Of a DNA stretch of 64,000 nucleotides, positions 30,571 to 63,119 are shown in pieces (the stretch's first letter is position 1; every line of letters begins with the position of its first letter). Position numbers and translations under genes: made by a program. The DNA comes from a virus (lineage: Duplodnaviria; Heunggongvirae; Uroviricota; Caudoviricetes): positions 21,427 to 85,426 of IMG/VR virus record IMGVR_UViG_3300013121_000012; one strand, 5' to 3'. The notes beneath the pieces were generated by a model. That model was given only the letters and a program-made list of their open reading frames with translations. It was not told where the DNA came from and did no database searches.

Positions 30571-31305
30571 ATGAAATTCCAATACTTCTCAGATCTACAT
30601 ACTGAATGTCATCATCATGAGTTACGTCGTGCGATCAACGTCGATAAACTCATTAAGAAAGAGGAAGGAATAGTAATCTTCGCTGGCGACATCATGGTCT
30701 TCAACGAAGAAAGAAATCCTTCGCGTATGTTTGGCCCTCTCACGACTGCGGGTGTCGACCTGTTCTACATTCCAGGAAATCATGAATTCTACCGCTCAAA
30801 TGCGAGATTTATGTTCGACACAATTAAGTTCCATACTCGTGTTGTCGAAAGAGAAGATTTCATCGTCATCTTATCTCCTCTTTGGTCTCATCTTCGCGAA
30901 GGTGTCAAAGAGCGCGTAGAACAAAGCATCGCTGATTTCTACCGAATTGAAGGGCATTCTGGAGATTTTCATAACGAAATTCATGCTTACTGTAAAGAGT
31001 TTGTACGACATCATCTCGCGAGATATATAAATGATCCTCGTAAGAAGATTGTTGTATCCCATTTCTCACCAACTCAACATTCAATTGCTCCTTATTGGAG
31101 AATGCATGGTGGAGTTATCAATGAGTATTTCTCGAATAGTATGACAGATATGATCGAAGAATTCCAACCAGATGTTTGGGTTCACGGTCACACTCATGAT
31201 ACATTCGACTACATGATCGGAAAGACGAGAATTCTGTGTAACCCAAGAGGTTATCCAGATGAAAAGAAACCAGGAGAATTCCACTATAATGTGGTAGAAG
31301 TATGA
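30571..31305 (+). CDS. calcineurin-like metallophosphoesterase
   Basis: SDLH, GDIM, GNHE and GHTHD motifs. Confidence 0.6.
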   Translation: MKFQYFSDLHTECHHHELRRAINVDKLIKKEEGIVIFAGDIMVFNEERNPSRMFGPLTTAGVDLFYIPGNHEFYRSNARFMFDTIKFHTRVVEREDFIVILSPLWSHLREGVKERVEQSIADFYRIEGHSGDFHNEIHAYCKEFVRHHLARYINDPRKKIVVSHFSPTQHSIAPYWRMHGGVINEYFSNSMTDMIEEFQPDVWVHGHTHDTFDYMIGKTRILCNPRGYPDEKKPGEFHYNVVEV

Positions 31306-31600: not shown

Positions 31601-32419
31601 ATGAAGTCGAATCAAGAAGAAATTTTTGGTTTTCTCAACAGGTTTAAGAAACCGATGATCGCTGTTGCAGGCGTTCTGATTTTCTTTCTGTTGCTAAATC
31701 CAATTACGTGCGTGAAACCTGGCCATCGTGGCGTGGTTCTAAAGTTCGGAGCCGTTTCGGGAAAAATCCTGAATGAAGGTGTGAACTGGCGAACTCCATT
31801 CGTCGACGAAGTCGTACAAATCAGTGTTCAAGTACAAAAAGTGGAAGAACAATCTCAATCTGCGTCAAAGGACCTTCAAACAGTCCGTACGGAAATTGCG
31901 CTGAACTTTCATATTTCTCCAGAAGCCGTGAACGAGTTGTATCAGAAAGTCGGTCTCAAATACGCAGACACGATAATCGAACCTGCCGTTCTTGAAACTA
32001 TGAAAGCCGTGACGGCTCAATACTCTGCTTCTGAATTGATTACAAAACGTGAACTTGTTTCTGACGCTGTCAAAGTCTCGTTGAAAGAGAAACTGAAAAC
32101 TTATTATCTGATCGTCGATGAAATATCGATGAAGGATTTCCAATTCAGTCAATCATTCTCTGAGGCGATTGAAGCAAAACAGAAATCCGAACAGGAAGCT
32201 CTTAAAGCTCAGAACGATTTGACTCGTATTAAGGTAGAAGCGGAACAGCAAATCGCTACCGCTAAAGCAGAAGCCGAATCGTATCGACTTAAGAGTCAAC
32301 AAATTACACGTAACATGATCGACATGGAACTCGCGAAGAAGTGGGACGGACACTATCCTCAAGTAATGAGTGGTGGTGGAACCATCTTGCAAATTCCAGT
32401 ACCAAAATCGAATCAATAG
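31601..32419 (+). CDS. SPFH/band-7 (prohibitin-like) membrane protein
   Basis: N-terminal TM segment, then a PHB-domain-like region (GHRGVVLKFG...) and a coiled-coil tail. Confidence 0.65.
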   Translation: MKSNQEEIFGFLNRFKKPMIAVAGVLIFFLLLNPITCVKPGHRGVVLKFGAVSGKILNEGVNWRTPFVDEVVQISVQVQKVEEQSQSASKDLQTVRTEIALNFHISPEAVNELYQKVGLKYADTIIEPAVLETMKAVTAQYSASELITKRELVSDAVKVSLKEKLKTYYLIVDEISMKDFQFSQSFSEAIEAKQKSEQEALKAQNDLTRIKVEAEQQIATAKAEAESYRLKSQQITRNMIDMELAKKWDGHYPQVMSGGGTILQIPVPKSNQ

Positions 32420-33167: not shown

Positions 33168-33241
33168 GCTCTAGTAGAGAATGGTATATCGGTTCCGCTT
33201 AAAACGGGATGTCATTGTCGGTTCGAATCCGACCTAGAGTA
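33168..33241 (+). tRNA. tRNA, class-I size, anticodon loop cuUAAaa (Leu-type anticodon UAA)
   Basis: Acceptor gctctag/ctagagt, T-arm gtcgg-TTCGAAT-ccgac, discriminator A. Confidence 0.55.
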
Positions 33242-33244
33242 AAT

Positions 33245-33321
33245 GCCGGTGTGATGCAATTTTGGCAGACATCTCTCATTCAAAACGAGAGTTTTTGGGG
33301 GTTCGAGTCCCTTCACCGGCA
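33245..33321 (+). tRNA. tRNA, class-I size, probable anticodon CAA (loop uuCAAaa closed by an A·C mismatch)
   Basis: Acceptor gccggtg/caccggc, T-loop TTCGAGT, discriminator A. Confidence 0.45.
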
Positions 33322-33337
33322 CAAAGTTTTTTAATAA

Positions 33338-33411
33338 GCCACTGTACACCAACGGTAGAGTGAGCGGTCTTAGAAGCCGTAAAGTGATGGGTTCGAATCC
33401 CTCCAGTGGTA
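33338..33411 (+). tRNA. tRNA, class-I size, anticodon loop cuUAGaa (Leu-type UAG); weak T-stem
   Basis: Acceptor gccactg/cagtggt, T-loop TTCGAAT. Confidence 0.45.
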
Positions 33412-33421
33412 CATAAAAATT

Positions 33422-33495
33422 GGTCTTGTGCGCGAAATGGTATAGCGGCAGTCCTGAGAAGGCTGTGTTTGTGGGTTCGAATCTCACCAAGACCA
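33422..33495 (+). tRNA. tRNA, class-I size, anticodon GAG (loop cuGAGaa; Leu-type)
   Basis: Acceptor ggtcttg/caagacc, D-stem cgcg, anticodon stem cagtc/ggctg, T-arm gtggg-TTCGAAT-ctcac, 5-nt variable loop. Confidence 0.6.
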
Positions 33496-33770
33496 CATGA
33501 ATATTGGTTGACAAGAGATTGTTAGAAACTCTTGGTAGCTCGAAATGATTGTTCTACGTAGTCTATTCGTAGTGATCATAGTAGAGTGCACTAAGACTGG
33601 ATGACGCAAAAATCTTTTGTCCGAAATGTTCATCATTTTCCTGGGTGATTAGAAAACAAAAAGTCTACGCCGAAAGAAAATGAAAATAATTTAATTGATT
33701 TAGAATTTAGAATTGACGCGGTTATGAATGGGTTTCTTGAACGTTTTTCCCCCGCAATAAACGTTCTTAA

Positions 33771-33858
33771 CCTCCTGTGGTGTAATGGCAGCACAACGGA
33801 TTTATATCCCGTCGCACCAGATTAGTGGTTTGTGAAGGTTCGATTCCTTCCAGGAGGA
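33771..33858 (+). tRNA. class-II (long variable arm) tRNA, anticodon unresolved
   Basis: Acceptor cctcctg/caggagg, T-arm gaagg-TTCGATT-ccttc, variable-arm hairpin acca/tggt. The anticodon region has an irregular 9-nt loop. Confidence 0.45.
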
Positions 33859-33939
33859 CATGAGTTTGAAAACGACAATAACAGTCGCTTTGAAGATGAA
33901 ATTAAATTGTAGTAGTCGACATTGTTCAAACTCACAAAT

Positions 33940-34298: not shown

Positions 34299-34874
34299 AT
34301 GAGTTCTTTAAAGTTCGAACCTATAGATCAATATATTCTCAAATCAAAGGATTTGAGACAATCGCATCTTGACTTAAAATCTGAATGCATTGAAATAGGA
34401 GGCGCTGACTCAAAACATTATAGAGGATTATTGGCTCATGTTCTTAAAACAACAATTCCATCTGGAAAAAAGATTCATTTATGTCATGCATGCAATAATC
34501 CAAAATGTTCCAATGTCAAACACTTATACTGGGGAACTGTAAAAGAGAATGCGCGTGATAAATTTGAATGTGGAAGAATGAGCTCTAAAAAAATAAAAGA
34601 ATCGCTTTTGAGAAAATTTGGATCAGAAGAAAATCTTCGGAAGCATTTCTCTGAAAATGGAAAGAAAAACAAGGGAAGAATCTTAGATCCAGAAAAAACC
34701 AAACACAGAATAGATTTAATACGATATTGTAATGTTGATTTTTCGAAATATGGTTGGGTACAAGAAGTGAGTAAAGTTACTGGAGTACATACGCAACACA
34801 TTAATAAACTGGTAAAAAGACATTTACCAGAAATTTATGCAATTGCCTTCAAGAGGAAAACAAAGGTATCATAG
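34299..34874 (+). CDS. HNH homing endonuclease
   Basis: HLCHACNNPKCSNVKHLYWGT: an HNH motif embedded in the tRNA array. Confidence 0.55.
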   Translation: MSSLKFEPIDQYILKSKDLRQSHLDLKSECIEIGGADSKHYRGLLAHVLKTTIPSGKKIHLCHACNNPKCSNVKHLYWGTVKENARDKFECGRMSSKKIKESLLRKFGSEENLRKHFSENGKKNKGRILDPEKTKHRIDLIRYCNVDFSKYGWVQEVSKVTGVHTQHINKLVKRHLPEIYAIAFKRKTKVS

Positions 34875-35340: not shown

Positions 35341-35742
35341 GGGGGCGCATTTGGCTTCGATTGTCCTGTTTGAAAACAAATTCTCAGTCGAGGAGTGTGC
35401 CTCGTAAAAAACAACAAAGCATATAAATGCAGAAAAGAAAGAAGGTAAACTACTCGTTGGAAACTTTGGTGCTACACCAGTTTCTCGTGGCGTAGTTGCC
35501 GCACTCGCAGCTTAATTTTAAGTTGCAAGAAACCCACAAGAGTTCGGTAGTGGTGTTTCTCCTTACAGAACTAAGAGATAAGAAAACGACGAAGGTTCTT
35601 ATTTATGAAAATTTCAGATTCGCCGAAGCCACCGACGCTTGTGTCTTATGTAGGTGAGCAGGAACAGTCAATAAGACTCTAAACTGTAAGATGAATCTGT
35701 TTTACAAGGGGTAAGACAGGGGTTCGATTCCCCTCGCCTCCA
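35341..35742 (+). ncRNA. ssrA: tmRNA (ssrA-like)
   Basis: 5' GGGGGCG pairs with 3' CGCCUCC-A and gives a G3·U70 pair (Ala identity). A T-arm agggg-TTCGATT-cccct lies next to the 3' end. The 5' region GGCTTCGATTGTCC resembles the tmRNA GGATTCGACGGG block. An internal reading frame ends ...GVVAALAA-TAA, a typical degradation tag. Confidence 0.65.
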
Positions 35743-35867
35743 CAAAGAATGTTTTTAACCATAGGCGGATCTCCGTTTATGAATCTCGCTATGACGGATA
35801 GCGATCACATCACTGAGCAGTTACAGTAATGTCGAGAAGTTAGAAGCCAACATCCGTCAGCAATATT

Positions 35868-38656: not shown

Positions 38657-39799
38657 ATGCAAGTTGACTTAAAGAAGATCGAACAATACGTTGCCTCTGG
38701 CAAAGTATCAAAGCGCAAACACCCAACACTCCCTTTGAATATCTACACATATTCGAAGTTAACTGAAATCAATAACGAGTGGGATGAAATCACAGCTATG
38801 TGCCGAGGATTAATTCTCGACTTAAACGGAAACGTTGTCGGAAATCCATGGCCAAAGTTTTTCAACATTGAACAAACTGGCGGATCAGCGCACATTAAGA
38901 AATTATGGTCGCATCCAGAAATTGGACACGATGTAATCAAACATAAGGGAACTGAATACAAGATTCCAGCGGTTGACTATGTTGCTTATGAAAAAATGGA
39001 CGGATCAATCCTCTATGGTTGCCGTTATTTTGACCAAATGGTCTTAGCATCAAAGGGTTCGTTCGAATCTGATCAAGTAAAAGTTGGAGAAAAAATCCTT
39101 AAGGAAAAGTACCCAACATTTATGGTGCCAGAAGGACATACGTTCATCTGGGAAATCATTTATCCAGCGAACCGGATAGTTGTTGACTACGGCGATATGT
39201 GCGATCTAGTTCTTTTAGGTATCCGTAATACGGATCTTAATATGGACTGGTTCGGATATAAAGAATCGTGGCTCAAAATCTTTCCACGACCAACTGTTTA
39301 CGAAAAGACAATTGAAGAACTTCTCGTTGAAAAAGACCGCAAGGACTTCATCAACAAAGAAGGATTCGTAATCCATTTTGAAAATGGCGAAAAGGTTAAG
39401 ATTAAGTATGAAGCTTATTTTGATCTTCACAAGATAATGACTAACGTCACATCAAAGGATATTCTCGAAGCTCTTGAAAAGGGCGACTCAGTCGTTGCTT
39501 TCTGCGAGCAAAAGGATATTCCAGATGAAATGCTTGATGAAATCAAAGCAGTCGAAAAGGACTTTATCAATCGCTACGCCAAAATCGAAGAAGATTGCAA
39601 GTACTATTTGTCTGTTGCTCTCGATAAGAGAGAACGTAAAGCTCAAGCAAAGAACGTCATGGAGTTTACTCCTGAGAATTTACGAGGAATCGTATTCGCT
39701 ATGCTCGACAATAAGGATTATTCAAAGATGATCTTTACTCTGTTGAAGATTGACGAAAAGATGAATCGCAAATTTATTGGAAAAGCAGGAGCGTCGTAA
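38657..39799 (+). CDS. RNA ligase, Rnl1 (T4 RnlA-like) family
   Basis: CRGLILDLNGNVVGNPWPKFFNIEQTG parallels T4 Rnl1 CRGIMFE...PMEKFFNLNENP. RBS aggagg. Confidence 0.75.
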   Translation: MQVDLKKIEQYVASGKVSKRKHPTLPLNIYTYSKLTEINNEWDEITAMCRGLILDLNGNVVGNPWPKFFNIEQTGGSAHIKKLWSHPEIGHDVIKHKGTEYKIPAVDYVAYEKMDGSILYGCRYFDQMVLASKGSFESDQVKVGEKILKEKYPTFMVPEGHTFIWEIIYPANRIVVDYGDMCDLVLLGIRNTDLNMDWFGYKESWLKIFPRPTVYEKTIEELLVEKDRKDFINKEGFVIHFENGEKVKIKYEAYFDLHKIMTNVTSKDILEALEKGDSVVAFCEQKDIPDEMLDEIKAVEKDFINRYAKIEEDCKYYLSVALDKRERKAQAKNVMEFTPENLRGIVFAMLDNKDYSKMIFTLLKIDEKMNRKFIGKAGAS

Positions 39800-39822
39800 G
39801 ACGCTCTTTTAAAGGAACTAAT

Positions 39823-40410
39823 ATGCAAGAAGTATATATCTTACGCGGAGTGCCAGCTTCAGGAAAATCAACCTGGGCAAGAGCATTCGTAAAACAAAAC
39901 CGAGATTTCGTAATCATATCTCGCGATGGAATCCGTGAAATGATCGGAGACTATTCACACTCACCACAAACAGAGAATCTCGTTACGAAGTTATATGATA
40001 AGATGGTTAAAGAACTCCTTTCTATGAAGAAGTCTTTGATCCTCGACAACTGTCATGCGCAACCAAAGTACATTTCAGAAACTCTCAAGTTGATCGAAGG
40101 AACTCGTCTCAACGTTAAAGTCACACTCAAAGAGTTTGAATATGATGTCGAGACATGCGTTGAGCGTGATGCAAAACGTGAACGTACTGTCGGTCGTGAA
40201 GTAATCGAAAAGATGGATCGTGCTATCCGCCAAAATCCATTCAAACACGTCGAAAAGATGGTGAATGAATGGAAGGCGAGTGTCGCCTCCAATCCTGATA
40301 CGAAGAGAGCGTGGAGCAATCCTACACTCAACTTCAAACCAGGATTGCCTTTAGCGGTAATTTTTGATATAGATGGTACATTAGCTCACATTTCTAGAAA
40401 GATCCAATAA
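39823..40410 (+). CDS. polynucleotide 5'-kinase domain of Pnk (T4 PseT-like), ends in the HAD DxDGT motif
   Basis: P-loop GVPASGKST. The C-terminus ...VIFDIDGTLAHI then reaches a stop, so the phosphatase domain is cut off after motif I. Confidence 0.75.
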   Translation: MQEVYILRGVPASGKSTWARAFVKQNRDFVIISRDGIREMIGDYSHSPQTENLVTKLYDKMVKELLSMKKSLILDNCHAQPKYISETLKLIEGTRLNVKVTLKEFEYDVETCVERDAKRERTVGREVIEKMDRAIRQNPFKHVEKMVNEWKASVASNPDTKRAWSNPTLNFKPGLPLAVIFDIDGTLAHISRKIQ

Positions 40411-43620: not shown

Positions 43621-44679
43621 ATGGAATGGAAAGTATACAAAAGCAAAGTTGAAGTCTTTCCTCATAAAGGGGCAGACAAACTAGAACTCGTAAAAGCGGG
43701 ACTATATCAGTTCGTCACGCAAAAAGGACTATATAAAACAGGCGACGATGCATTCGTTATACCTGAGAAAAGTGTTCTACCAGATGCCCTAAAACCGCAT
43801 TGGGAACAGTTCCTGAAAGGACCGGATAAAAACCGCGTAGGTTCTATTCGTCTCAGAAATGAAGCATCTCAAGGAATTCTGCTTTCAATGGACAAAGCAA
43901 AAGAAATATTTGCTGACATCGAAACAGCGGAATATGGAACGGACGTAAGTGAATTCCTCGGAATTACAAAATACGAACCACCAATTCCTCCACAATTCGC
44001 CGGTCAAATGAAACCACTTCAAGGAGAGAAACACTTCTTCGATTGTACTCATTTCAGTATCTATGAAAATGAATTCAGAGAAGAGGACGATGTTATCGTC
44101 ACAGAGAAACTTCACGGAACACAATGTAACTATCAATATAACATCCTTACTGGCGAAGAACAAATCACATCGAAAGGATTACTTCAAAAAGATATTTGCA
44201 TTGTTGAAAATCCAGACAACATTTACTGGAGGGCAATCCGTGAAAGCAAAGTAAAAGAATGGATCGACGAATGGATCTCATGTCTTCCTGCCGGAGATGA
44301 ATTCAAAAAAGTTCAAATAACTGGAGAAGTTATTCCGTGTCAAAAAGGATATTCTTATGGTCTAACGAAACCAAAGTTCTTCATTTTTAACATTGCAGTA
44401 TGGGAAGTTGATGAATCATTTTCAACGTGGTTCCCGGATGAAGATGAGATACTTCCATTCGACAAAGCTCCAATTCTTTTCGCTGGAAAATATGCTGATG
44501 TTTGTTACAGACTCCAAGAGATGTGCGAAGGAATGGAAACGGTTTCTGGAAAAGGATTACACATCCGCGAAGGAATCGTTGTTCGTCCAGTTCCAGATCG
44601 CAGAACACATTCTGGTGAATGGCTTCGTTTGAAAGTCATCAATCCAAAATACAAAGAGGATGGAGAAGAGTTGTCATGA
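43621..44679 (+). CDS. ATP-dependent RNA/DNA ligase-family nucleotidyltransferase (Rnl2-like motifs)
   Basis: TEKLHGTQ (motif I, KxHG as in Rnl2 KIHGTN), EGIVVRP (motif IV) and WLRLKVINPKYK (motif V). Confidence 0.45.
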   Translation: MEWKVYKSKVEVFPHKGADKLELVKAGLYQFVTQKGLYKTGDDAFVIPEKSVLPDALKPHWEQFLKGPDKNRVGSIRLRNEASQGILLSMDKAKEIFADIETAEYGTDVSEFLGITKYEPPIPPQFAGQMKPLQGEKHFFDCTHFSIYENEFREEDDVIVTEKLHGTQCNYQYNILTGEEQITSKGLLQKDICIVENPDNIYWRAIRESKVKEWIDEWISCLPAGDEFKKVQITGEVIPCQKGYSYGLTKPKFFIFNIAVWEVDESFSTWFPDEDEILPFDKAPILFAGKYADVCYRLQEMCEGMETVSGKGLHIREGIVVRPVPDRRTHSGEWLRLKVINPKYKEDGEELS

Positions 44680-45367: not shown

Positions 45368-45579
45368 TCAAAGCAATCAGAAGATGGTGGATAAAAACTG
45401 GAATCGACGCCTGTTACAAAGAATACGAAAATCTGAATCATTTTTGGAAGTTCGAATGTTCTAATTTTTTTAGAGGGCCACAATCGGCAAAAAGAAATCG
45501 TGTGCGAGCTCATCAATGGCAACATAGAATAGATGAAAGACTCGATAAACTCGAAGCAAAATTGAAGGAACTAAAATGA
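45364..45579 (+). CDS. hypothetical small protein
   Basis: Start trimmed. Confidence 0.3.
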   Translation: MIKAIRRWWIKTGIDACYKEYENLNHFWKFECSNFFRGPQSAKRNRVRAHQWQHRIDERLDKLEAKLKELK

Positions 45580-46379
45580 ATAACAGCAAAGACAGTCTCG
45601 GCGATCGCATGAAGGGATATGAAAATATCTGGAAGACAAAACTTCCACGTCGCCTTCCAATGATCATGAGAGTGGATGGAAAAGCATTTCACACATACAC
45701 TCGCGACTGTGAAAAACCATTCGATAAAAGACTTGCTGATCTTATGGATGCAACAGCGAAGCATCTTTGTGAGAATATCCAGGGTGCTCAGATCGCATAC
45801 GTTCAAAGTGATGAGATAACAATTCTCGTTCATGACTACAAGACTCTTCAGAGTGATGCGTGGTTCGATAAAGAACTTCAGAAGATGTGTTCAATCTCTG
45901 CGGCATTAGCAAGTACGTTCTTTACTGTTAATAGCCACAAATTGTGGAAATATGATGATGCAGATCTACCGTCTGGAATGAACAGAATCAAAACTGCTCT
46001 CTTTGATTCTCGTTGCTTCATTGTACCAGAACATGACGTTGTCAACAACTTTATTTGGAGACAGCAAGACGCAGTACGTAACAGCATTCAAATGCTTGCT
46101 CGTTCTCTTTACTCACACAACGAATGCAACAATAAAAATCAGGCGGCTCTTCAGGAGATGATTCACCAGAAAGGCCAAAACTGGAATGATGTTCCTACTG
46201 GCTTCAAACGTGGTCGCTGCGTATACAAGAAACCATTTTATGTTGTCAGCGATGAACGCATGCACGATGAAGATGTTGTACGCAACAAGTGGATTATCGA
46301 TTCAGAAATTCCTACGTTTACTGTTGACAGAGATTTTATAGGAAAATGGTTAGCAGTTAATGAGGAAAAAAATGATTGA
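45576..46379 (+). CDS. Thg1-like protein (tRNA-His guanylyltransferase family, 3'-5' nucleotidyltransferase)
   Basis: N-terminus DRMKGYE...PMIMRVDGKAFHTYT parallels the Thg1 RIDGKKFHEFS core, and SDEITILV parallels the Thg1 SDEYSF block. Confidence 0.65.
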   Translation: MNNSKDSLGDRMKGYENIWKTKLPRRLPMIMRVDGKAFHTYTRDCEKPFDKRLADLMDATAKHLCENIQGAQIAYVQSDEITILVHDYKTLQSDAWFDKELQKMCSISAALASTFFTVNSHKLWKYDDADLPSGMNRIKTALFDSRCFIVPEHDVVNNFIWRQQDAVRNSIQMLARSLYSHNECNNKNQAALQEMIHQKGQNWNDVPTGFKRGRCVYKKPFYVVSDERMHDEDVVRNKWIIDSEIPTFTVDRDFIGKWLAVNEEKND

Positions 46380-47071: not shown

Positions 47072-47216
47072 ATTACTTCATATTCTGGGTTTTTGCCCAG
47101 ACCGCTTCGCACATTTCAGTCTTACGACTCTTTTGTGTACAAACGAAATACTATTCACAATTTATTACTTGTGGCTTAAGTTCAGAACGTCCTTCTAGCC
47201 ACCAAAGGTGGTTAAA

Positions 47217-47879
47217 ATGAAACGTTACAAGTACCCAAAAACAATGCATTTTCCATGGTCGCCTGGTCTTCAGAACGACGACCGTATGCTTGAATCTGTC
47301 AATGTTTTTATAGGCAAAGAAGTCATCATTACTGAAAAGTTCGATGGCGAGAATACATCGATCTACGCAGATCATATTCATGCCAGGAGTTTAGACTCAC
47401 AGAATCATCCGAGCAGAAACTGGGTAAGAGCATTCGCTGCAAAATTTCAGCATCAGATACCAATTGATTGGAGAATCTGTGGAGAGAATATGTATGCGAT
47501 GCATTCTATTTTCTACAAATATCTGCCATCGTACTTTCTAGGATTCTCAATATGGGATGATAAGAATAACTGCTTACATTGGGATGAAACGATGAATTGG
47601 TTTCAAATGTTCGGAATAACACCCGTGAGACCGATCTATCGCGGAATCTTTGATGATAAACTAATTCAATCATTGATCATGGCAAATGGATCAGCGATTA
47701 TGGATGAAAACATGGAAGGATATGTTTGCAGAACGGTTGAAGGATTTCATTACGATGACTTCCAGAAATGCGTTGCGAAATATGTACGAAAAAACCATGT
47801 TCAGACAGATGAACATTGGATGAATAAGGAGATAGTTAAGAATGGCCTCGACACAAGATCAGAAATCAGCGGCAAGTGA
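47217..47879 (+). CDS. small RNA-ligase-family nucleotidyltransferase (PF09414-like)
   Basis: TEKFDGEN (motif I KxDG), EGYVCRT (motif IV) and VAKYVRKNH (motif V); RBS aaaggtgg. Confidence 0.5.
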   Translation: MKRYKYPKTMHFPWSPGLQNDDRMLESVNVFIGKEVIITEKFDGENTSIYADHIHARSLDSQNHPSRNWVRAFAAKFQHQIPIDWRICGENMYAMHSIFYKYLPSYFLGFSIWDDKNNCLHWDETMNWFQMFGITPVRPIYRGIFDDKLIQSLIMANGSAIMDENMEGYVCRTVEGFHYDDFQKCVAKYVRKNHVQTDEHWMNKEIVKNGLDTRSEISGK

Positions 47880-50199: not shown

Positions 50200-50514
50200 G
50201 AAAATTTTTATGCGAAATTTCGGTTTGTTGTAATATAATAGTAATATCGGAAGCGAGAAAAGAGCTACTTCGAATCAACTACAAACAGCTTTAAAAAGAA
50301 AACAATCTCTTTTCAATTTTTCTCCGAGATAATGCACGTCAGAAGACTGACAGCAAGGTAAGTGAGTTACTTCGGCCCTTAGTGGGCAATTTTTATTTGA
50401 AAAAAAATCCGGTTGGTGCGAATCCAGCAAAGATGGCGAAAGCCAGGGAGCAATCCCGCCTCACTCCAATTTCCTTCAGTCGAGTGCACCGTTCTCATAA
50501 TAAAGAAAAATTAA
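50200..50514 (+). ncRNA. candidate structured ncRNA upstream of the Ro60 gene (possible second Y-like RNA)
   Basis: A noncoding stretch with a -10-like element at ~50228 that ends at the intrinsic terminator at 50515. It contains GNRA-type hairpins (ggcgaaagcc) and a T-arm-like hairpin ttgg-TGCGAAT-ccag. Confidence 0.3.
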
Positions 50515-50540
50515 GGCTCCCAATGAGGAGCCTTTTTTAT
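50515..50540 (+). terminator. intrinsic terminator
   Basis: ggctcc-caatga-ggagcc + TTTTTTA. Confidence 0.65.
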
Positions 50541-50555
50541 TTTAGGAGTGACAAT

Positions 50556-52037
50556 ATGTCAAAGTTTAACAAGAAAACAAAAACAACAATCAAGCCAAAG
50601 GTCGTCGCCAATAAAGGCGGTGGTGTAGGCTTTGCGCAGAGTAAGGAAATGGAACTCGCTTCTATTTTGCTTACATCGTTCCTATCAGGGAACACACATG
50701 AATCAGAGTCAGCGCAAGAACAAAGAATCTCGAATCTCCTTGATTCGTTTGGCGATTCAAACTTCCCAGCGAAAGCTGCGGTGTTTGCTCGTAACGAATT
50801 CGGTATGCGTTCAGTTTCACACTTGATCGCGTCTGAAATCGGTGAAAGAGTTAAGGGAGCAGAATGGACAAAACGATTCTTTGAAAAGGTTGTTCGCCGT
50901 CCAGACGACATTACTGAAATTCTTTCACGCACACTCGCAGAACAAGGAACAGTTCCTAATGCGATGAAGAAAGGACTTGCAGCTTCTTTCTCTAAGTTCG
51001 ATGAGTACCAACTCGCGAAGTATAGAGGAGAAGGAAAAGCAGTTTCTTTGATTGACGCTGTCAATCTTCTTCACCCAACTCCAACAGCGAAAAACAAAAT
51101 CGCTCTCAAGAAATTGATTGCCGATAAGCTTCGTTCAAAGGAAACATGGGAATCAAAGATTTCTGAAACAGGAAAATCTGAGAATGTCGAAGAAGCTAAG
51201 ACGGAAGCTTGGGCAGATTTAATCACTTCCGAAAGAATTGGTTATCTCGCTCTTGTACGAAACCTCCGTAACATTCTCACAAGTGTTACTGATGTAGGCG
51301 TTATTGAAAAGGCTTGCGATATCCTTAAGGATAAGAACAAGTGCAAGAACAGTCTTATCTTCCCTTTCACTTTCTGGTCAGCGTACTTTGAAGTTGAAAG
51401 TATGTCACTCTCAAGTGTTACAAAGAAGCTTGTCATGAGCGCTTTGAACAAAGCACTTGAAATGTCATGTGACAACATCCCAGTATTCGAAGGACGAACA
51501 CTCGTTGCTATCGATTATTCTGGATCAATGGGTGGAACTGACATCTGCAACAAATTGAGCAATCGAGGCGTTGCATCATTGTTCGCTACTGTTCTCGCTA
51601 AGAAGAACCCAACATCTGACATCGTTATCTTCGGAGACGATTGCAAGTATGTTAAGAACTTCAACGCAGACGACAGCATCTTCACAAACCTAAAAAACTT
51701 GATGAAGAATAACCAATATGCGGGAGACAATACTGTTCATGTTGGTCACAGTACAAATTTCTATTCAATCTTCAATGCCGCAAAGCATAAGTATGATCGA
51801 ATCGTAATTTTCTCTGATATGCAAGCGAACTCTGGATATGGTTGGTCTGGACTAGAAGCATACAACAAGAAGTTTGACGTAAAGCCACTCATTATTGCTG
51901 TTGATCTTCAAGGCAACGGAACAACTCAGTTCAAGAAAGACTTCGTTCAAGTAGTCGGATGGTCTGAAAAGATTTTCGATCTTATGAAGAACGATGCTCA
52001 GACACTTGTCAACAGAATCAAAGCCATCGAGCTTTAA
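50556..52037 (+). CDS. rsr: Ro60 (TROVE domain + C-terminal vWA/MIDAS) ortholog, Rsr-like
   Basis: RBS ttaggagtgacaATG. The C-terminal vWA has LVAIDYSGSMGG (MIDAS DxSxS). An N-terminal ~350-aa helical region is typical of TROVE proteins. The length (493 aa) matches bacterial Rsr. Start trimmed from the track ORF. Confidence 0.65.
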   Translation: MSKFNKKTKTTIKPKVVANKGGGVGFAQSKEMELASILLTSFLSGNTHESESAQEQRISNLLDSFGDSNFPAKAAVFARNEFGMRSVSHLIASEIGERVKGAEWTKRFFEKVVRRPDDITEILSRTLAEQGTVPNAMKKGLAASFSKFDEYQLAKYRGEGKAVSLIDAVNLLHPTPTAKNKIALKKLIADKLRSKETWESKISETGKSENVEEAKTEAWADLITSERIGYLALVRNLRNILTSVTDVGVIEKACDILKDKNKCKNSLIFPFTFWSAYFEVESMSLSSVTKKLVMSALNKALEMSCDNIPVFEGRTLVAIDYSGSMGGTDICNKLSNRGVASLFATVLAKKNPTSDIVIFGDDCKYVKNFNADDSIFTNLKNLMKNNQYAGDNTVHVGHSTNFYSIFNAAKHKYDRIVIFSDMQANSGYGWSGLEAYNKKFDVKPLIIAVDLQGNGTTQFKKDFVQVVGWSEKIFDLMKNDAQTLVNRIKAIEL

Positions 52038-52129: not shown

Positions 52130-52370
52130 AATAAAGCACTTCCGGAAAAGAGGGCGCCCCTCTGGAACGGAAGGAGAAACTGCGGGGTAGCCCAATATGG
52201 TAGAGGCATCGGCGTGAAAGCCGAAACAGTGTTGGTTCGATTCCAATCCTCATGGCTTTCGAAGGTTTTGCGGGAACAACGCCCGCAGTTTCCTAACAAA
52301 AAACTGGACGGATGCGAAGTGAATTTCATGCATGGTTTACAGATTAAACCAGCTGACTTTTTACCAATTT
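52130..52370 (+). ncRNA. Y RNA-like ncRNA (YrlA-like), core helix 52176..52292
   Basis: gaaactgcgggg...cccgcagtttc forms a ≥11-bp terminal helix that encloses a D-arm-like gtagcccaatatggtagagg and a T-arm gttgg-TTCGATT-ccaat. It is followed by a hairpin ggttta-caga-ttaaacc and a T-rich tract. Confidence 0.5.
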
Positions 52371-59575: not shown

Positions 59576-59647
59576 TGCCTCGTAGCCAAGTGGTAAGGCA
59601 GGTGACTGTTAATCATCGTATCGTAGGTTCGATCCCTACCGAGGCAG
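59576..59647 (+). tRNA. tRNA-Asn (GUU)
   Basis: Anticodon arm ggtga-cuGUUaa-tcatc, T-arm gtagg-TTCGATC-cctac. Confidence 0.55.
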
Positions 59648-59666
59648 CAGTATAATAAGGAGAAAA

Positions 59667-59863: not shown

Positions 59864-59955
59864 TCCGCGGTACACTAATTGGTAAGTGACCTCACTGTTA
59901 ATGAGACGTAAATCCCTTCGGGGAATATATAGAGGTTCGAGCCCTCTCTGCGGAG
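59864..59955 (+). tRNA. class-II-sized tRNA with Asn-type anticodon loop cuGUUaa and a 24-nt extra arm capped by UUCG
   Basis: Acceptor tccgcgg/ctgcgga, D-arm cact/agtg, T-arm agagg-TTCGAGC-cctct, extra arm atccc-ttcg-gggaat. Confidence 0.4.
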
Positions 59956-59958
59956 CAA

Positions 59959-62519: not shown

Positions 62520-63062
62520 ATGGAACAGTTTGTTAAATGTCTAAAAGATGATTGTGAAAACACTCTGACTTTAGAGAAAGTTAAGCGCGGAACAAAATTT
62601 TGTTCTCGATCTTGTGGAATTTCACATGGAAATACCATTAGACAAAAAGCTCCCACGATTGTTCACTGTGATAGTTGTGGAAATAAAATTGAAGGGCCGA
62701 ATTTTTGGCTCAACGGAAAGCTTAAATTCAAAAACAAATTCTGTAATGATACTTGCAGAAGAGATTTTGATAATAAGAAAAAGATTTCTTTGGTCGAATC
62801 TGGAAAAGCAACCGATAACGACAGAAGAGTTTTGAAAGAATACTTGGAAAACAAAGAAGGACACAAATGCAAAATTTGTGGAATTACTGATTGGTTAGGA
62901 AAACCTTTGATAATGATCTTAGATCATATTGATGGTCATTCTGAAAACAATGAACTGTCTAATTTAAGACTAGTTTGTTCGAATTGTGATTCGCAACTCG
63001 ATACATATAAAGCTAGAAATAAAGGAAACGGAAGAAAGAATAGAAAAGCTCTGCAAGCATAA
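62520..63062 (+). CDS. HNH homing endonuclease
   Basis: ICGITDWLGKPLIMILDHIDGHSENNELSNLRLVCSNCD; Cys-rich N-terminus. Confidence 0.65.
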   Translation: MEQFVKCLKDDCENTLTLEKVKRGTKFCSRSCGISHGNTIRQKAPTIVHCDSCGNKIEGPNFWLNGKLKFKNKFCNDTCRRDFDNKKKISLVESGKATDNDRRVLKEYLENKEGHKCKICGITDWLGKPLIMILDHIDGHSENNELSNLRLVCSNCDSQLDTYKARNKGNGRKNRKALQA

Positions 63063-63119
63063 ATGGCGATGCACCGGTCTTGTAAATCGGGGAACGGGAT
63101 TCGATTTCTCGGCGGAGCA
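63048..63119 (+). tRNA. tRNA-Thr (UGU)
   Basis: Acceptor gctctgc/gcggagc, D-arm gcat/atgc, anticodon arm ccggt-cuUGUaa-atcgg, T-arm cggga-TTCGATT-tctcg. It overlaps the last codons of the HNH ORF. Confidence 0.55.

What the first reader, a model, noticed from the sequence alone, without database searches (positions are those of the whole stretch)
33168..33495. Four tandem class-I-sized tRNAs that all carry leucine-type anticodons (UAA, CAA?, UAG, GAG)
Each gene has a clean acceptor stem, a canonical T-loop, a 4-5-nt variable loop (total 74-77 nt) and discriminator A, yet the 7-nt anticodon loops read cuUAAaa, uuCAAaa, cuUAGaa and cuGAGaa. Bacterial tRNA-Leu is always class II, with a long variable arm. 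These are therefore either an unusual set of 'short-armed' Leu isoacceptors, tRNAs of another identity carrying Leu anticodons (with mistranslation potential), or nuclease-evading substitutes or decoys for a host tRNA-Leu-targeting defence. The #4 (GAG) parse is unambiguous; #2 requires a mismatch-closed loop.
Basis: seen in the sequence. Interest (0 to 1): 0.75.

Follow-up and report, generated by a model that had tools for sequence, protein, structure and literature searches.

The report
Short-armed leucine tRNAs in a phage
Four neighbouring phage tRNA genes really do carry leucine anticodons without the long extra arm usual for leucine tRNAs, but such short leucine tRNAs turn out to be common in phages and in many actinobacteria, so this is a fresh example of a known, under-appreciated tRNA type.

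Summary
ARAGORN and Rfam both call four tandem tRNAs at 33168-33495 with anticodons UAA, CAA, UAG and GAG. All have 5-6 nt variable loops and A73, and none is refolded with a long arm or a different anticodon.

The premise that bacterial tRNA-Leu is always class II is wrong. Streptomyces coelicolor has a short (type I) tRNA-Leu(CAA) that its LeuRS charges, and short tRNA-Leu genes are annotated in phages of seven host genera.

The scaffold of tRNA3, searched with the anticodon left free, occurs in at least 119 IMG/VR contigs and at least 120 bacterial species. Every one of 243 hits carries a leucine anticodon. A73 is invariant in the viral set, and all its stems covary. The scaffold of tRNA2 and tRNA4 keeps the D arm typical of class II tRNA-Leu and is 93% Leu. 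In close relatives the same array slot holds either a short or a long tRNA-Leu(UAG).

Best reading: these are genuine leucine isoacceptors covering all six Leu codons, tolerated because bacterial LeuRS does not read the long arm. In the same contigs tRNA-Ser never loses its arm. Mistranslation and decoy readings are not supported, and nuclease evasion remains untested. This is a new member of a known kind.

The parts
33168..33241 (+). Type I tRNA-Leu(UAA), 74 nt, G1.U72, A73, 6-nt variable loop GUCAUU. I call this scaffold 'family A'.
   Evidence: ARAGORN and Rfam at 41.8 bits. The only homologues found are tRNA-Leu(CAA/UAA) of Xanthomonas phages X1 and BUDD, at 84-89% identity. 7 of 18 pairs are kept through changes on both sides in the 4-sequence alignment. 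A strict family A pattern found nothing in IMG/VR.
33245..33321 (+). Type I tRNA-Leu(CAA), 77 nt, A73, U8-G9, a 3-bp D stem with a long D loop AAUUUUGGCAG(A), and variable loop GUUUUU. This is 'family C'. It is the weakest of the four, with A31.C39 and two G.U pairs in the T stem.
   Evidence: ARAGORN and Rfam at 35.4 bits. The same architecture is seen in IMG/VR Leu(CAA) genes such as L158, L172 and L185. Its slot is not orthologous in the relatives L017 and L024.
33338..33411 (+). Type I tRNA-Leu(UAG), 74 nt, G1.U72, A73, U8-A9, 3-bp D stem, D loop CAACGGUAGA, variable loop AAAGU, and a bulged U in the T stem. This is 'family B'.
   Evidence: ARAGORN and Rfam at 44.3 bits. It is 93% identical over 57 nt to Pseudomonas phage XD2 and 82-87% identical to tRNA-Leu of Bacillus, Lactobacillus, Mycobacterium and Streptomyces phages. 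The scaffold is found in at least 119 IMG/VR contigs and at least 120 bacterial species, always with Leu anticodons.
33422..33495 (+). Type I tRNA-Leu(GAG), 74 nt, G1-C72, A73, U8-G9, 3-bp D stem, D loop GAAAUGGUAUA (the class II Leu type), and variable loop UGUUU. This is 'family C'.
   Evidence: ARAGORN and Rfam at 52.4 bits. It is orthologous in the relatives L017 and L024. 14 of 21 pairs are kept through changes on both sides in a 6-sequence alignment. A family C pattern gave 74 IMG/VR hits, of which 66 of the 71 parsed tRNAs are Leu.

Best explanation
The four genes are functional leucine isoacceptors of the type I (short-variable-loop) kind. They sit in a co-oriented tRNA array of a large, uncultured T4-superfamily-like myophage.

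Inferred mechanism: the array is transcribed as a precursor, the tRNAs are cut out by host RNase P and 3' processing, and CCA is added because it is not encoded. The host LeuRS then charges them with leucine. Bacterial LeuRS reads the discriminator A73 and the D/T-loop elbow (A14, A15-U48, G18G19, A20a, U54-A58). [quoted passage not shown]

With anticodons UAA, CAA, UAG and GAG, the set can read all six Leu codons, and the phage uses all six. The phage therefore carries its own complete Leu-decoding set.

The short arm is best explained as a tolerated state that has been inherited and exchanged horizontally. Losing the arm costs little for LeuRS recognition. tRNA-Ser, whose synthetase needs the arm, never loses it in the same contigs.

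Shown here: the genes, their folds, their covariation, the exclusive link between scaffold and Leu anticodons, and slot-for-slot interchange with a class II tRNA-Leu(UAG) in sibling phages. Inferred: expression, processing and leucylation.
For: (1) Two independent tools agree on four canonical cloverleaves with Leu anticodons and short variable loops.

(2) The family B scaffold (tRNA3) was searched with anticodon, acceptor stem and discriminator unconstrained. All 122 IMG/VR hits carry Leu anticodons: UAA 61, UAG 41, CAA 19, AAG 1. A73 is present in every parsed tRNA. Among 98 unique sequences, all 20 stem pairs are 95-100% paired, and 18 of those pairs show 3-6 pair types.

(3) The same pattern in bacterial genomes gave 121 hits, all Leu, mostly Actinomycetota.

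(4) Family C (tRNA2, tRNA4) keeps the D arm typical of class II tRNA-Leu: U8-G9, a 3-bp stem and the loop GAAnUGGUAnA. Of 71 parsed IMG/VR hits, 66 are Leu. All 37 in-register sequences have A73 and U48.

(5) tRNA2, tRNA3 and tRNA4 carry the full E. coli-type Leu identity set listed in PMC9976931: A73, A14, A15-U48, G18G19, A20a and U54-A58. All four have variable loops of at least 5 nt, the minimum for good charging reported in PMC6614811.

(6) In the relatives L017 and L024 the flanks and tRNA4 are orthologous, but the UAG slot holds an 84-nt class II tRNA-Leu(UAG). Short and long versions therefore replace one another.

(7) tRNA4 compared with its L017 orthologue shows compensatory changes at pair 7:66 and in the anticodon stem.

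(8) Control: across 222 fetched loci, tRNA-Ser is 0 short and 99 long, while tRNA-Leu is 286 short and 62 long. This matches the known dependence of SerRS, but not LeuRS, on the arm.

(9) A type I tRNA-Leu(CAA) with variable loop ACAGC is leucylated by S. coelicolor LeuRS.

(10) All six Leu codons are used in the window's ORFs.
Against: There are no expression, processing or charging data. The host is unknown, so its LeuRS cannot be examined. E. coli LeuRS failed to charge the S. coelicolor type I tRNA-Leu(CAA), so charging by any given host enzyme is not guaranteed.

tRNA1 lacks the A15-U48 pair (it has U15 and U48) and has a short D loop. tRNA2 has an A.C mismatch closing the anticodon loop and scores only 35.4 bits.

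The two CUN readers have A37 rather than the G37 (m1G37) that, to my knowledge, is usual in bacterial tRNA-Leu(NAG).

The Leu short/long ratio is biased, because the loci were chosen for carrying short Leu genes. Parts of the D loop, variable loop and T loop were fixed by the search patterns and so are not independent evidence.
Confidence: 0.8

Rival explanations
1. The short arm is itself an adaptation. Some host defence or toxin, or a phage-made nuclease aimed at the host, recognises class II tRNA-Leu through its long arm or its anticodon loop. The phage carries a complete arm-less Leu set that escapes this attack, so translation of all Leu codons continues. This adds a selective reason to the best explanation and does not exclude leucylation.
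For: The array lies in an island rich in RNA-repair genes: Rnl1-type RNA ligase 38657-39799, PNK-like kinase 39823-40410, two further RNA-ligase-domain proteins (43621-44679 and 47208-47879), a Thg1-like protein 45576-46379, a Ro60-like protein 50382-52037 and a tmRNA. All four isoacceptors are short and together cover all six codons. Precedents exist for phage tRNAs escaping anticodon nucleases through loop changes (PMC10264068) and for a toxin that favours tRNA-Ser (MenT3, PMC11541572, abstract seen). From my own knowledge, human SLFN11 cleaves type II tRNAs. That paper is cited in PMC13056530.
Against: No bacterial system that targets tRNA-Leu through its long arm was found. The bacterial Schlafen studied in PMC13056530 cleaves Lys, Met, Ala and other tRNAs and is not specific for class II. 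Sibling phages L017 and L024 keep a class II tRNA-Leu(UAG) in the same array. Cultured phages often carry short and long Leu genes side by side. The same short scaffold is a chromosomal tRNA in many actinobacteria, where evasion is not an obvious explanation.
Confidence: 0.12
2. They are tRNAs of another amino-acid identity that acquired Leu anticodons, so they insert a different residue at Leu codons. This would be deliberate or tolerated mistranslation, as with nematode nev-tRNAs or bacterial allo-tRNAs.
For: LeuRS ignores the anticodon, so the anticodon alone does not prove Leu identity. ARAGORN names tRNAs by anticodon only. Class-I-sized bodies are typical of other identities.
Against: Scaffolds B and C were searched with a free anticodon. 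They carry Leu anticodons in 243 of 243 hits and 66 of 71 parsed tRNAs respectively. A scaffold of another identity would mostly carry that identity's anticodons. A73 is invariant. The D arm is of the Leu type (3-bp stem, 10-11 nt loop, A14-A15, A20a) rather than the 4-bp, 7-8 nt type of the window's other class I tRNAs. The slot is interchangeable with a class II Leu. A member of this kind is leucylated in vitro (PMC6614811).
Confidence: 0.04
3. They are uncharged decoys or sponges that soak up an anticodon nuclease or another tRNA-binding factor. Alternatively, some of them, especially tRNA2, are decaying pseudogenes.
For: tRNA2 has a mismatch-closed anticodon loop, G.U-rich T stem pairs and the lowest score. 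The first three slots turn over quickly between sibling phages.
Against: Acceptor stems covary and A73 is invariant across more than 100 divergent homologues. A decoy for an anticodon nuclease would not need either feature. The T-loop and D-loop tertiary nucleotides are intact in all four. All four score above the Rfam gathering threshold.
Confidence: 0.04

Closest known systems
Type I tRNA-Leu(CAA) of Streptomyces coelicolor (Fan et al. 2019, NAR; PMC6614811)
   Same: It is a bacterial-type tRNA with a Leu anticodon, a 5-nt variable loop (ACAGC, compared with NNAGU in family B) and A73. It coexists with class II tRNA-Leu and has been shown to be leucylated by a bacterial LeuRS. The family B scaffold of window tRNA3 is abundant in actinobacterial genomes.
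   Different: Here all four isoacceptors are short, they are phage-borne in a 39% GC genome that is unlikely to infect a high-GC actinobacterium, and they come from three different scaffolds. I could not obtain the S. coelicolor sequence itself, so its placement in family B is inferred from the variable-loop sequence alone. E. coli LeuRS did not charge the Streptomyces tRNA.
Short tRNA-Leu genes annotated in cultured phages and in mycobacterial tRNA clusters (PMC6582537)
   Same: 73-78 nt tRNA-Leu genes are annotated in Mycobacterium Bixzunavirus phages, Rhodococcus phage NiceHouse, Streptomyces phage Dennebes, Bacillus phages Thurquoise, Deep Blue and vB_BcoS-136, Lactobacillus phages 8014-B2 and Semele, Pseudomonas phage vB_PseuGesM_254 and Xanthomonas phage X1. 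ARAGORN calls further, unannotated copies in Pseudomonas phage XD2 and Xanthomonas phage BUDD. Behra et al. noted a short-variable-loop tRNA-Leu(TAG) in a Mycobacterium tRNA cluster. Window tRNA3 is 82-93% identical to several of these, and tRNA1 is 84-89% identical to the Xanthomonas phage genes.
   Different: Those phages usually carry one or two short Leu genes, often next to a long one. I found no paper that treats them as a class. This window has a full tandem set of four with no class II tRNA-Leu in 64 kb.
Canonical class II bacterial and phage tRNA-Leu
   Same: They share A73, A14, A15-U48, G18G19, A20a, a 3-bp D stem with a 10-11 nt D loop (families B and C) and the same anticodons. 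Class II genes occupy the same array slot in sibling phages.
   Different: The window genes have no long variable arm: 5-6 unpaired nucleotides instead of 13-17 with a stem. The two CUN readers have A37 rather than G37.
Animal mitochondrial type I tRNA-Leu
   Same: Short variable loop, A73 and A14 as identity elements, and charging without a long arm (PMC9976931).
   Different: Mitochondrial tRNAs have degenerate D and T loops and a dedicated LeuRS. The window tRNAs have fully canonical bacterial D and T loops.
Phage tRNAs that evade tRNA-targeting defences (van den Berg et al. 2023, PMC10264068)
   Same: Phage-borne tRNA sets sit next to tRNA-repair genes. The proposed logic is that phage copies differ from host copies at the features a nuclease recognises.
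   Different: The described cases rest on anticodon-loop substitutions, not on loss of the variable arm. No tRNA-Leu-directed or arm-directed defence is linked to this locus.

Membership tests
Type I (short-variable-loop) tRNA-Leu | Complete cloverleaf tRNA | tested here: met
   RF00005 matches all four end to end at 35.4-52.4 bits, above the gathering score of 29. ARAGORN agrees.
Type I (short-variable-loop) tRNA-Leu | Leu anticodon (NAG or YAA) in a 7-nt loop with U33 | tested here: met
   UAA, CAA, UAG and GAG in loops CUUAAAA, UUCAAAA, CUUAGAA and CUGAGAA. Both tools agree.
Type I (short-variable-loop) tRNA-Leu | Variable region short and unpaired, but at least 5 nt (the minimum for good charging in PMC6614811) | tested here: met
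   Variable loops GUCAUU, GUUUUU, AAAGU and UGUUU (requirement).
Type I (short-variable-loop) tRNA-Leu | Bacterial Leu identity elements outside the arm: A73, U8-A14, A15-U48, G18G19, A20a, U54-A58 | tested here: met
   All are present in tRNA2, tRNA3 and tRNA4. tRNA1 has A73, A14, G18G19 and U54-A58, but U15/U48 and a short D loop (element list from PMC9976931).
Type I (short-variable-loop) tRNA-Leu | Scaffold tied to Leu anticodons across divergent homologues | tested here: met
   Family B: 122 of 122 viral and 121 of 121 bacterial hits are Leu. Family C: 66 of 71. The anticodon was left free in all these searches. Family A has only 3 homologues, all Leu.
Type I (short-variable-loop) tRNA-Leu | Leucylation by LeuRS | not testable with these tools
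   Needs in vitro charging or charged-tRNA sequencing. Shown only for the S. coelicolor member (PMC6614811).
Class II bacterial tRNA-Leu | Long variable arm (more than 10 nt, with a stem) | tested here: not met
   No tool folds any of the four with a long arm. The class II tRNA-Leu(UAG) of relatives L017 and L024 is 84 nt.
Identity/anticodon-mismatched tRNAs (nev-tRNA, allo-tRNA, mistranslating tRNAs) | Body carries identity elements of an amino acid other than the one its anticodon specifies | tested here: not met
   The body carries Leu elements, and the scaffolds carry almost only Leu anticodons.
Defence-evading phage tRNAs | Differs from the host's cognate tRNA at the nucleotides or structure recognised by a host tRNA-targeting nuclease | not testable with these tools
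   Neither the host nor a cognate nuclease is known. The only context is an RNA-repair island.

The most novel reading that the evidence does not exclude
Loss of the long arm is an escape device. The phage encodes a complete, arm-less leucine-decoding set so that translation continues while class II tRNA-Leu is destroyed or disabled, either by a host defence that recognises the long arm or by the phage's own attack on host tRNAs. More generally, phages remodel the variable region as a handle for friend-or-foe discrimination. They delete it in Leu and add tetraloop hairpins to Asn, Lys, Gln and others. To the AUA-reading tRNA-Ile(UAU) they add a hairpin whose loop spells the Ile anticodon GAU.
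Probability: 0.12. Interest if true: 0.7.

Novelty: new member of a known kind. Interest (0 to 1): 0.35.

Why it matters
A 2023 review of tRNA identity (PMC9976931) still states that tRNA-Leu carries a long variable arm everywhere except animal mitochondria. This locus, and the searches it prompted, show that arm-less tRNA-Leu genes are frequent in phage genomes across host phyla and in actinobacterial chromosomes. They fall into a few conserved, horizontally shared scaffolds.

This makes a clean natural test of LeuRS recognition rules. E. coli LeuRS reportedly rejects one such tRNA, yet phages of Pseudomonas and Xanthomonas carry them.

It also matters for annotation. These genes should not be flagged as pseudogenes or as mismatched isotypes.

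If the short arm proves to be an escape from a long-arm-specific defence, it would add a new axis to the phage-host conflict over tRNAs. Nothing here shows that.

Tried and rejected
- **Exact 22-nt match to the tRNA4 3' half in IMG/VR:** no hits.
- **Related-locus search in IMG/VR with the RNA ligase:** no hits.
- **Exact-protein look-ups of two window proteins:** not on record.
- **tblastn of the RNA ligase and tail sheath against cultured phages:** at most 31% and 28% identity, so no cultured relative exists to compare arrays with.
- **Strict family A pattern in IMG/VR:** no hits. tRNA1 therefore rests on only three homologues.
- **Sigma-70 promoter and terminator scan around the array:** no more sites than in shuffled sequence, so no statement about transcription signals can be made.
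- **Literature searches for phage type I tRNA-Leu:** nothing direct. There is only a passing remark in PMC6582537.
- **Bacterial Schlafen nucleases as a long-arm-specific threat:** the published bacterial enzyme is not specific for class II tRNAs. The eLife paper on phage tRNA evasion does not mention the variable arm.
- **Host assignment:** the only hint is that the phage's SPFH protein is about 55% identical to Leptospira prohibitins. That is too weak to call.
- **tRNAscan-SE isotype-specific models** were not available.

Full report
**1.

ARAGORN on the whole window reports 22 tRNAs and a tmRNA. Four of them are consecutive genes on the + strand: Leu(UAA) at 33168-33241, Leu(CAA) at 33245-33322, Leu(UAG) at 33338-33412 and Leu(GAG) at 33422-33496. 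Rfam's tRNA model matches all four from end to end above its gathering score. The scores are 41.8, 35.4, 44.3 and 52.4 bits against a threshold of 29.

Rfam and ARAGORN give the same anticodon loops: CUUAAAA, UUCAAAA, CUUAGAA and CUGAGAA. Variable loops are 5-6 unpaired nucleotides. The discriminator is A in all four, and CCA is not encoded.

tRNA2 is the weakest of the four. It has an A31.C39 mismatch and two G.U pairs in the T stem. tRNA3 has a single bulged U in its T stem, and the same bulge recurs in homologues from unrelated phages.

**2. Setting**

The window comes from a large uncultured myophage. It encodes:
- a 1182-aa tail sheath (25-28% identical to T4-like sheaths);
- an SbcC-like protein and a PhuZ-like tubulin;
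- a DNA ligase;
- an unusually rich RNA-repair set: an Rnl1-type ligase, a PNK-like kinase, two further RNA-ligase-domain proteins, a Thg1-like protein, a Ro60-like protein and a metallophosphatase.

GC content is about 39%. No cultured phage is close.

**3. Short tRNA-Leu genes are not rare**

BLAST of the array against cultured phages hit 35 records. The hosts named are Mycobacterium, Bacillus, Lactobacillus, Pseudomonas, Xanthomonas, Rhodococcus and Streptomyces.

I fetched twelve of these loci. Each holds a 73-78 nt tRNA-Leu, annotated in ten and called only by ARAGORN in two. Often it sits beside an 84-87 nt class II tRNA-Leu.

The literature adds three points:
- S. coelicolor has a type I tRNA-Leu(CAA) with variable loop ACAGC. 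Its own LeuRS charges it, but E. coli LeuRS does not (PMC6614811).
- A short-variable-loop tRNA-Leu(TAG) was noted in passing in a Mycobacterium tRNA cluster (PMC6582537).
- A 2023 review of tRNA identity still describes the long arm of tRNA-Leu as universal outside animal mitochondria (PMC9976931).

**4. Three scaffolds**

Parsing all the Leu genes into their arms shows that the four window genes belong to three scaffolds.

| Scaffold | Window gene(s) | Main features | Where else found |
|---|---|---|---|
| Family A | tRNA1 | 4-bp D stem with one mismatch, 6-nt D loop, variable loop GUCAUU | Only Xanthomonas phages X1 and BUDD |
| Family B | tRNA3 | U8-A9, 3-bp D stem, D loop CAACGGNAGA, variable loop NNAGU | Phages of many hosts; actinobacterial chromosomes |
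| Family C | tRNA2, tRNA4 | U8-G9, 3-bp D stem, D loop GAAnUGGUAnA (as in class II tRNA-Leu), U-rich 5-6 nt variable loop | IMG/VR viral contigs |

**5. Test of identity by association**

I searched IMG/VR with the family B scaffold, leaving the anticodon, acceptor stem and discriminator free.
Every hit has a Leu anticodon: UAA 61, UAG 41, CAA 19 and AAG 1.
- All parsed genes are 73-75 nt to the discriminator. A73 is present in all of them, once ARAGORN's 8-bp acceptor calls are put back in register.
- Among 98 unique sequences, each of the 20 stem pairs is 95-100% paired, and 18 of the 20 pairs show three to six pair types.
All 121 hits are Leu.

The family C pattern gave 74 viral hits. Of the 71 parsed as tRNAs, 66 are Leu. 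All 37 in-register sequences have A73 and U48, and their stems covary.

A scaffold that belonged to some other identity, or that was merely decaying, would not show this exclusive link to Leu anticodons.

**6. Identity elements**

The review lists the E. coli Leu determinants as A73, A14, the A15-U48 pair, G18G19, A20a and the elbow pairs. It states explicitly that the anticodon and the long arm are not determinants, and that variants lacking the arm still charge.

tRNA2, tRNA3 and tRNA4 have every one of these elements. tRNA1 lacks A15-U48.

**7. Relatives**

The SPFH protein 750 nt upstream of the array has metagenomic homologues at 84-97% identity.

- **L017/L018.** Their contigs carry the same array order: Leu(UAA), Leu(CAA), Leu(UAG), Leu(GAG), a long-armed UAU tRNA, Val, Asp and a tmRNA.
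- **L024.** It carries a variant of that order.
- **Homology.** BLAST shows that the flanks and tRNA4 are homologous, while the first three slots are not.
- **Slot contents.** In both relatives the UAG slot holds an 84-nt class II tRNA-Leu. The UAA and CAA slots hold family B genes, or in L024 an ORF in place of CAA.

Short and long tRNA-Leu genes therefore replace one another slot for slot. This is what is expected if they do the same job. tRNA4 and its orthologues differ by compensatory changes, with 14 of 21 pairs kept through changes on both sides. Family A shows 7 of 18 such pairs.

**8. A control**

Across the 222 loci fetched up to that point, ARAGORN finds these counts:

| tRNA | Short | Long |
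|---|---|---|
| tRNA-Ser | 0 | 99 |
| tRNA-Leu | 286 | 62 |

The Leu ratio is inflated because the loci were chosen for carrying short Leu genes. The Ser result is not affected by that choice. It fits the known rule that SerRS needs the long arm and LeuRS does not.

**9. Function**

All six Leu codons are used in the window's ORFs: CUU 29%, CUC 19%, UUA 17%, UUG 16%, CUA 13% and CUG 7%. The four anticodons cover them all.

The most likely reading is a self-sufficient Leu-decoding set charged by the host LeuRS. I put this at 0.8.

Why the arm is short is not settled. The simplest account is that its loss is tolerated and that such genes spread among phages. An adaptive account, escape from a factor that recognises the long arm, fits the neighbouring RNA-repair genes but has no direct support. 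The one bacterial Schlafen nuclease studied is not specific for class II tRNAs. Sibling phages also keep a class II tRNA-Leu in the same array.

**10. Verdict**

The finding is real and correctly described. It is a new member of a known but little-noticed kind.

What is new here is modest:
- a complete tandem set of four short isoacceptors drawn from three scaffolds, in a phage that probably does not infect an actinobacterium;
- the demonstration that these scaffolds are widespread and strictly Leu-linked.

**11. Things noticed in passing**

The most striking side observation is a long-armed tRNA with the Ile anticodon UAU at 33771-33859.
- Relatives of it are very common in IMG/VR, with at least 120 contigs.
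- Their extra arm is a covarying 4-bp stem capped by a 7-nt loop YAGAUNN, most often CAGAUUA or CAGAUAA. This is almost the anticodon loop of the major tRNA-Ile(GAU).
- I found no description of this in the literature.

Other phage tRNAs (Asn, Lys, Gln, Cys, Trp, Glu, Thr, Pro) sometimes carry short extra hairpins, most of them capped by a four-base loop. In nearly all, the discriminator is the one I expect for the anticodon's amino acid. In phages the class I/class II boundary is therefore leaky in both directions.

Noticed in passing
window 33771-33859 (+); orthologue L017 10197-10286; IMG/VR loci L343-L459 and others: An 89-nt tRNA has the Ile anticodon UAU, A73, C1-G72, a class-I-type D arm and a long variable arm. 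Of 48 tRNA-Ile(UAU) genes in the first 222 loci, 17 are long (88-95 nt), and no other tRNA-Ile is long. In 15 of the 16 unique long ones the arm carries the loop motif YAGAUNN (CAGAUUA, CAGAUAA, UAGAUGA). This is nearly the anticodon loop of tRNA-Ile(GAU). The motif is absent from all of about 185 other long tRNAs. In the closest relative, L024, the slot instead holds a 73-nt CAU tRNA. I found no paper describing this. One idea is that the arm shows a GAU loop to IleRS or to a modification enzyme, so that an AUA-reading tRNA keeps Ile identity.
   Followed up: partly
window 59864-59956 (+), next to a normal tRNA-Asn at 59576-59648: A 93-nt tRNA has the Asn anticodon GUU, G73 (the Asn discriminator) and a long variable arm capped by a UUCG tetraloop. 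It lies about 200 nt downstream of an ordinary 73-nt tRNA-Asn(GUU). Three more long Asn(GUU) genes occur in IMG/VR loci L055, L063 and L218. Long-armed Lys, Gln, Cys, Trp, Glu, Thr and Pro tRNAs, most with short four-base loops, also occur. In nearly all, the discriminator is the one I expect for the anticodon's amino acid.
   Followed up: partly
window 50382-52037 (+) and 52181-52256 (+): A Ro60-like protein (TROVE plus vWA domains) is followed by a strong terminator hairpin. Next comes a tRNA-like element with a 6-nt 'anticodon' loop and a mispaired acceptor stem (Rfam tRNA 27.5 bits, below threshold). This may be the tRNA-like module of a Y RNA partner of Ro60.
   Followed up: partly
window 30571-31305, 38657-40410, 43621-44679, 45576-46379, 47208-47879 (+): The tRNA region is interleaved with a dense RNA-repair island. 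It holds a metallophosphatase, an Rnl1-type RNA ligase, a PNK-like kinase, two more RNA-ligase-domain proteins and a Thg1-like (3'-5' polymerase family) protein.
   Followed up: partly
window 35341-35743 (+); L017 11856-12262; L024 4182-4584: The phage encodes a tmRNA (Rfam 106 bits) with a long 28-residue tag, AEKKEGKLLVGNFGATPVSRGVVAALAA. It is conserved, with tag variation, in both relatives.
   Followed up: no
window 33338-33495 and homologues: The CUN-reading tRNA-Leu genes (UAG and GAG) have A37 rather than the G37 that, to my knowledge, is usual in bacterial tRNA-Leu(NAG). Most family B and family C members also have A37, with a minority carrying G37. G1.U72 is the most common first pair in the viral family B genes, at 64 of 98.
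   Followed up: partly
window 63048-63119 (+): ARAGORN misses a tRNA here that Rfam finds at 44.5 bits. Its anticodon loop is CUUGUAA, making it tRNA-Thr(UGU).
   Followed up: yes
window 34299-34874 (+); L024 2014-2547: An ORF that reads like an HNH-type homing endonuclease lies between tRNA-Val and tRNA-Asp. Pfam gave no match for it, so this rests on its sequence alone. In relative L024 an unrelated ORF occupies the place of the tRNA-Leu(CAA) gene. This fits cassette-like turnover of the array.
   Followed up: no
window 31601-32419 (+): The phage's SPFH/Band 7 protein has its best named matches, at about 55% identity, almost all in Leptospira prohibitins. This is a weak hint at a Leptospiraceae host or gene donor.
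   Followed up: no
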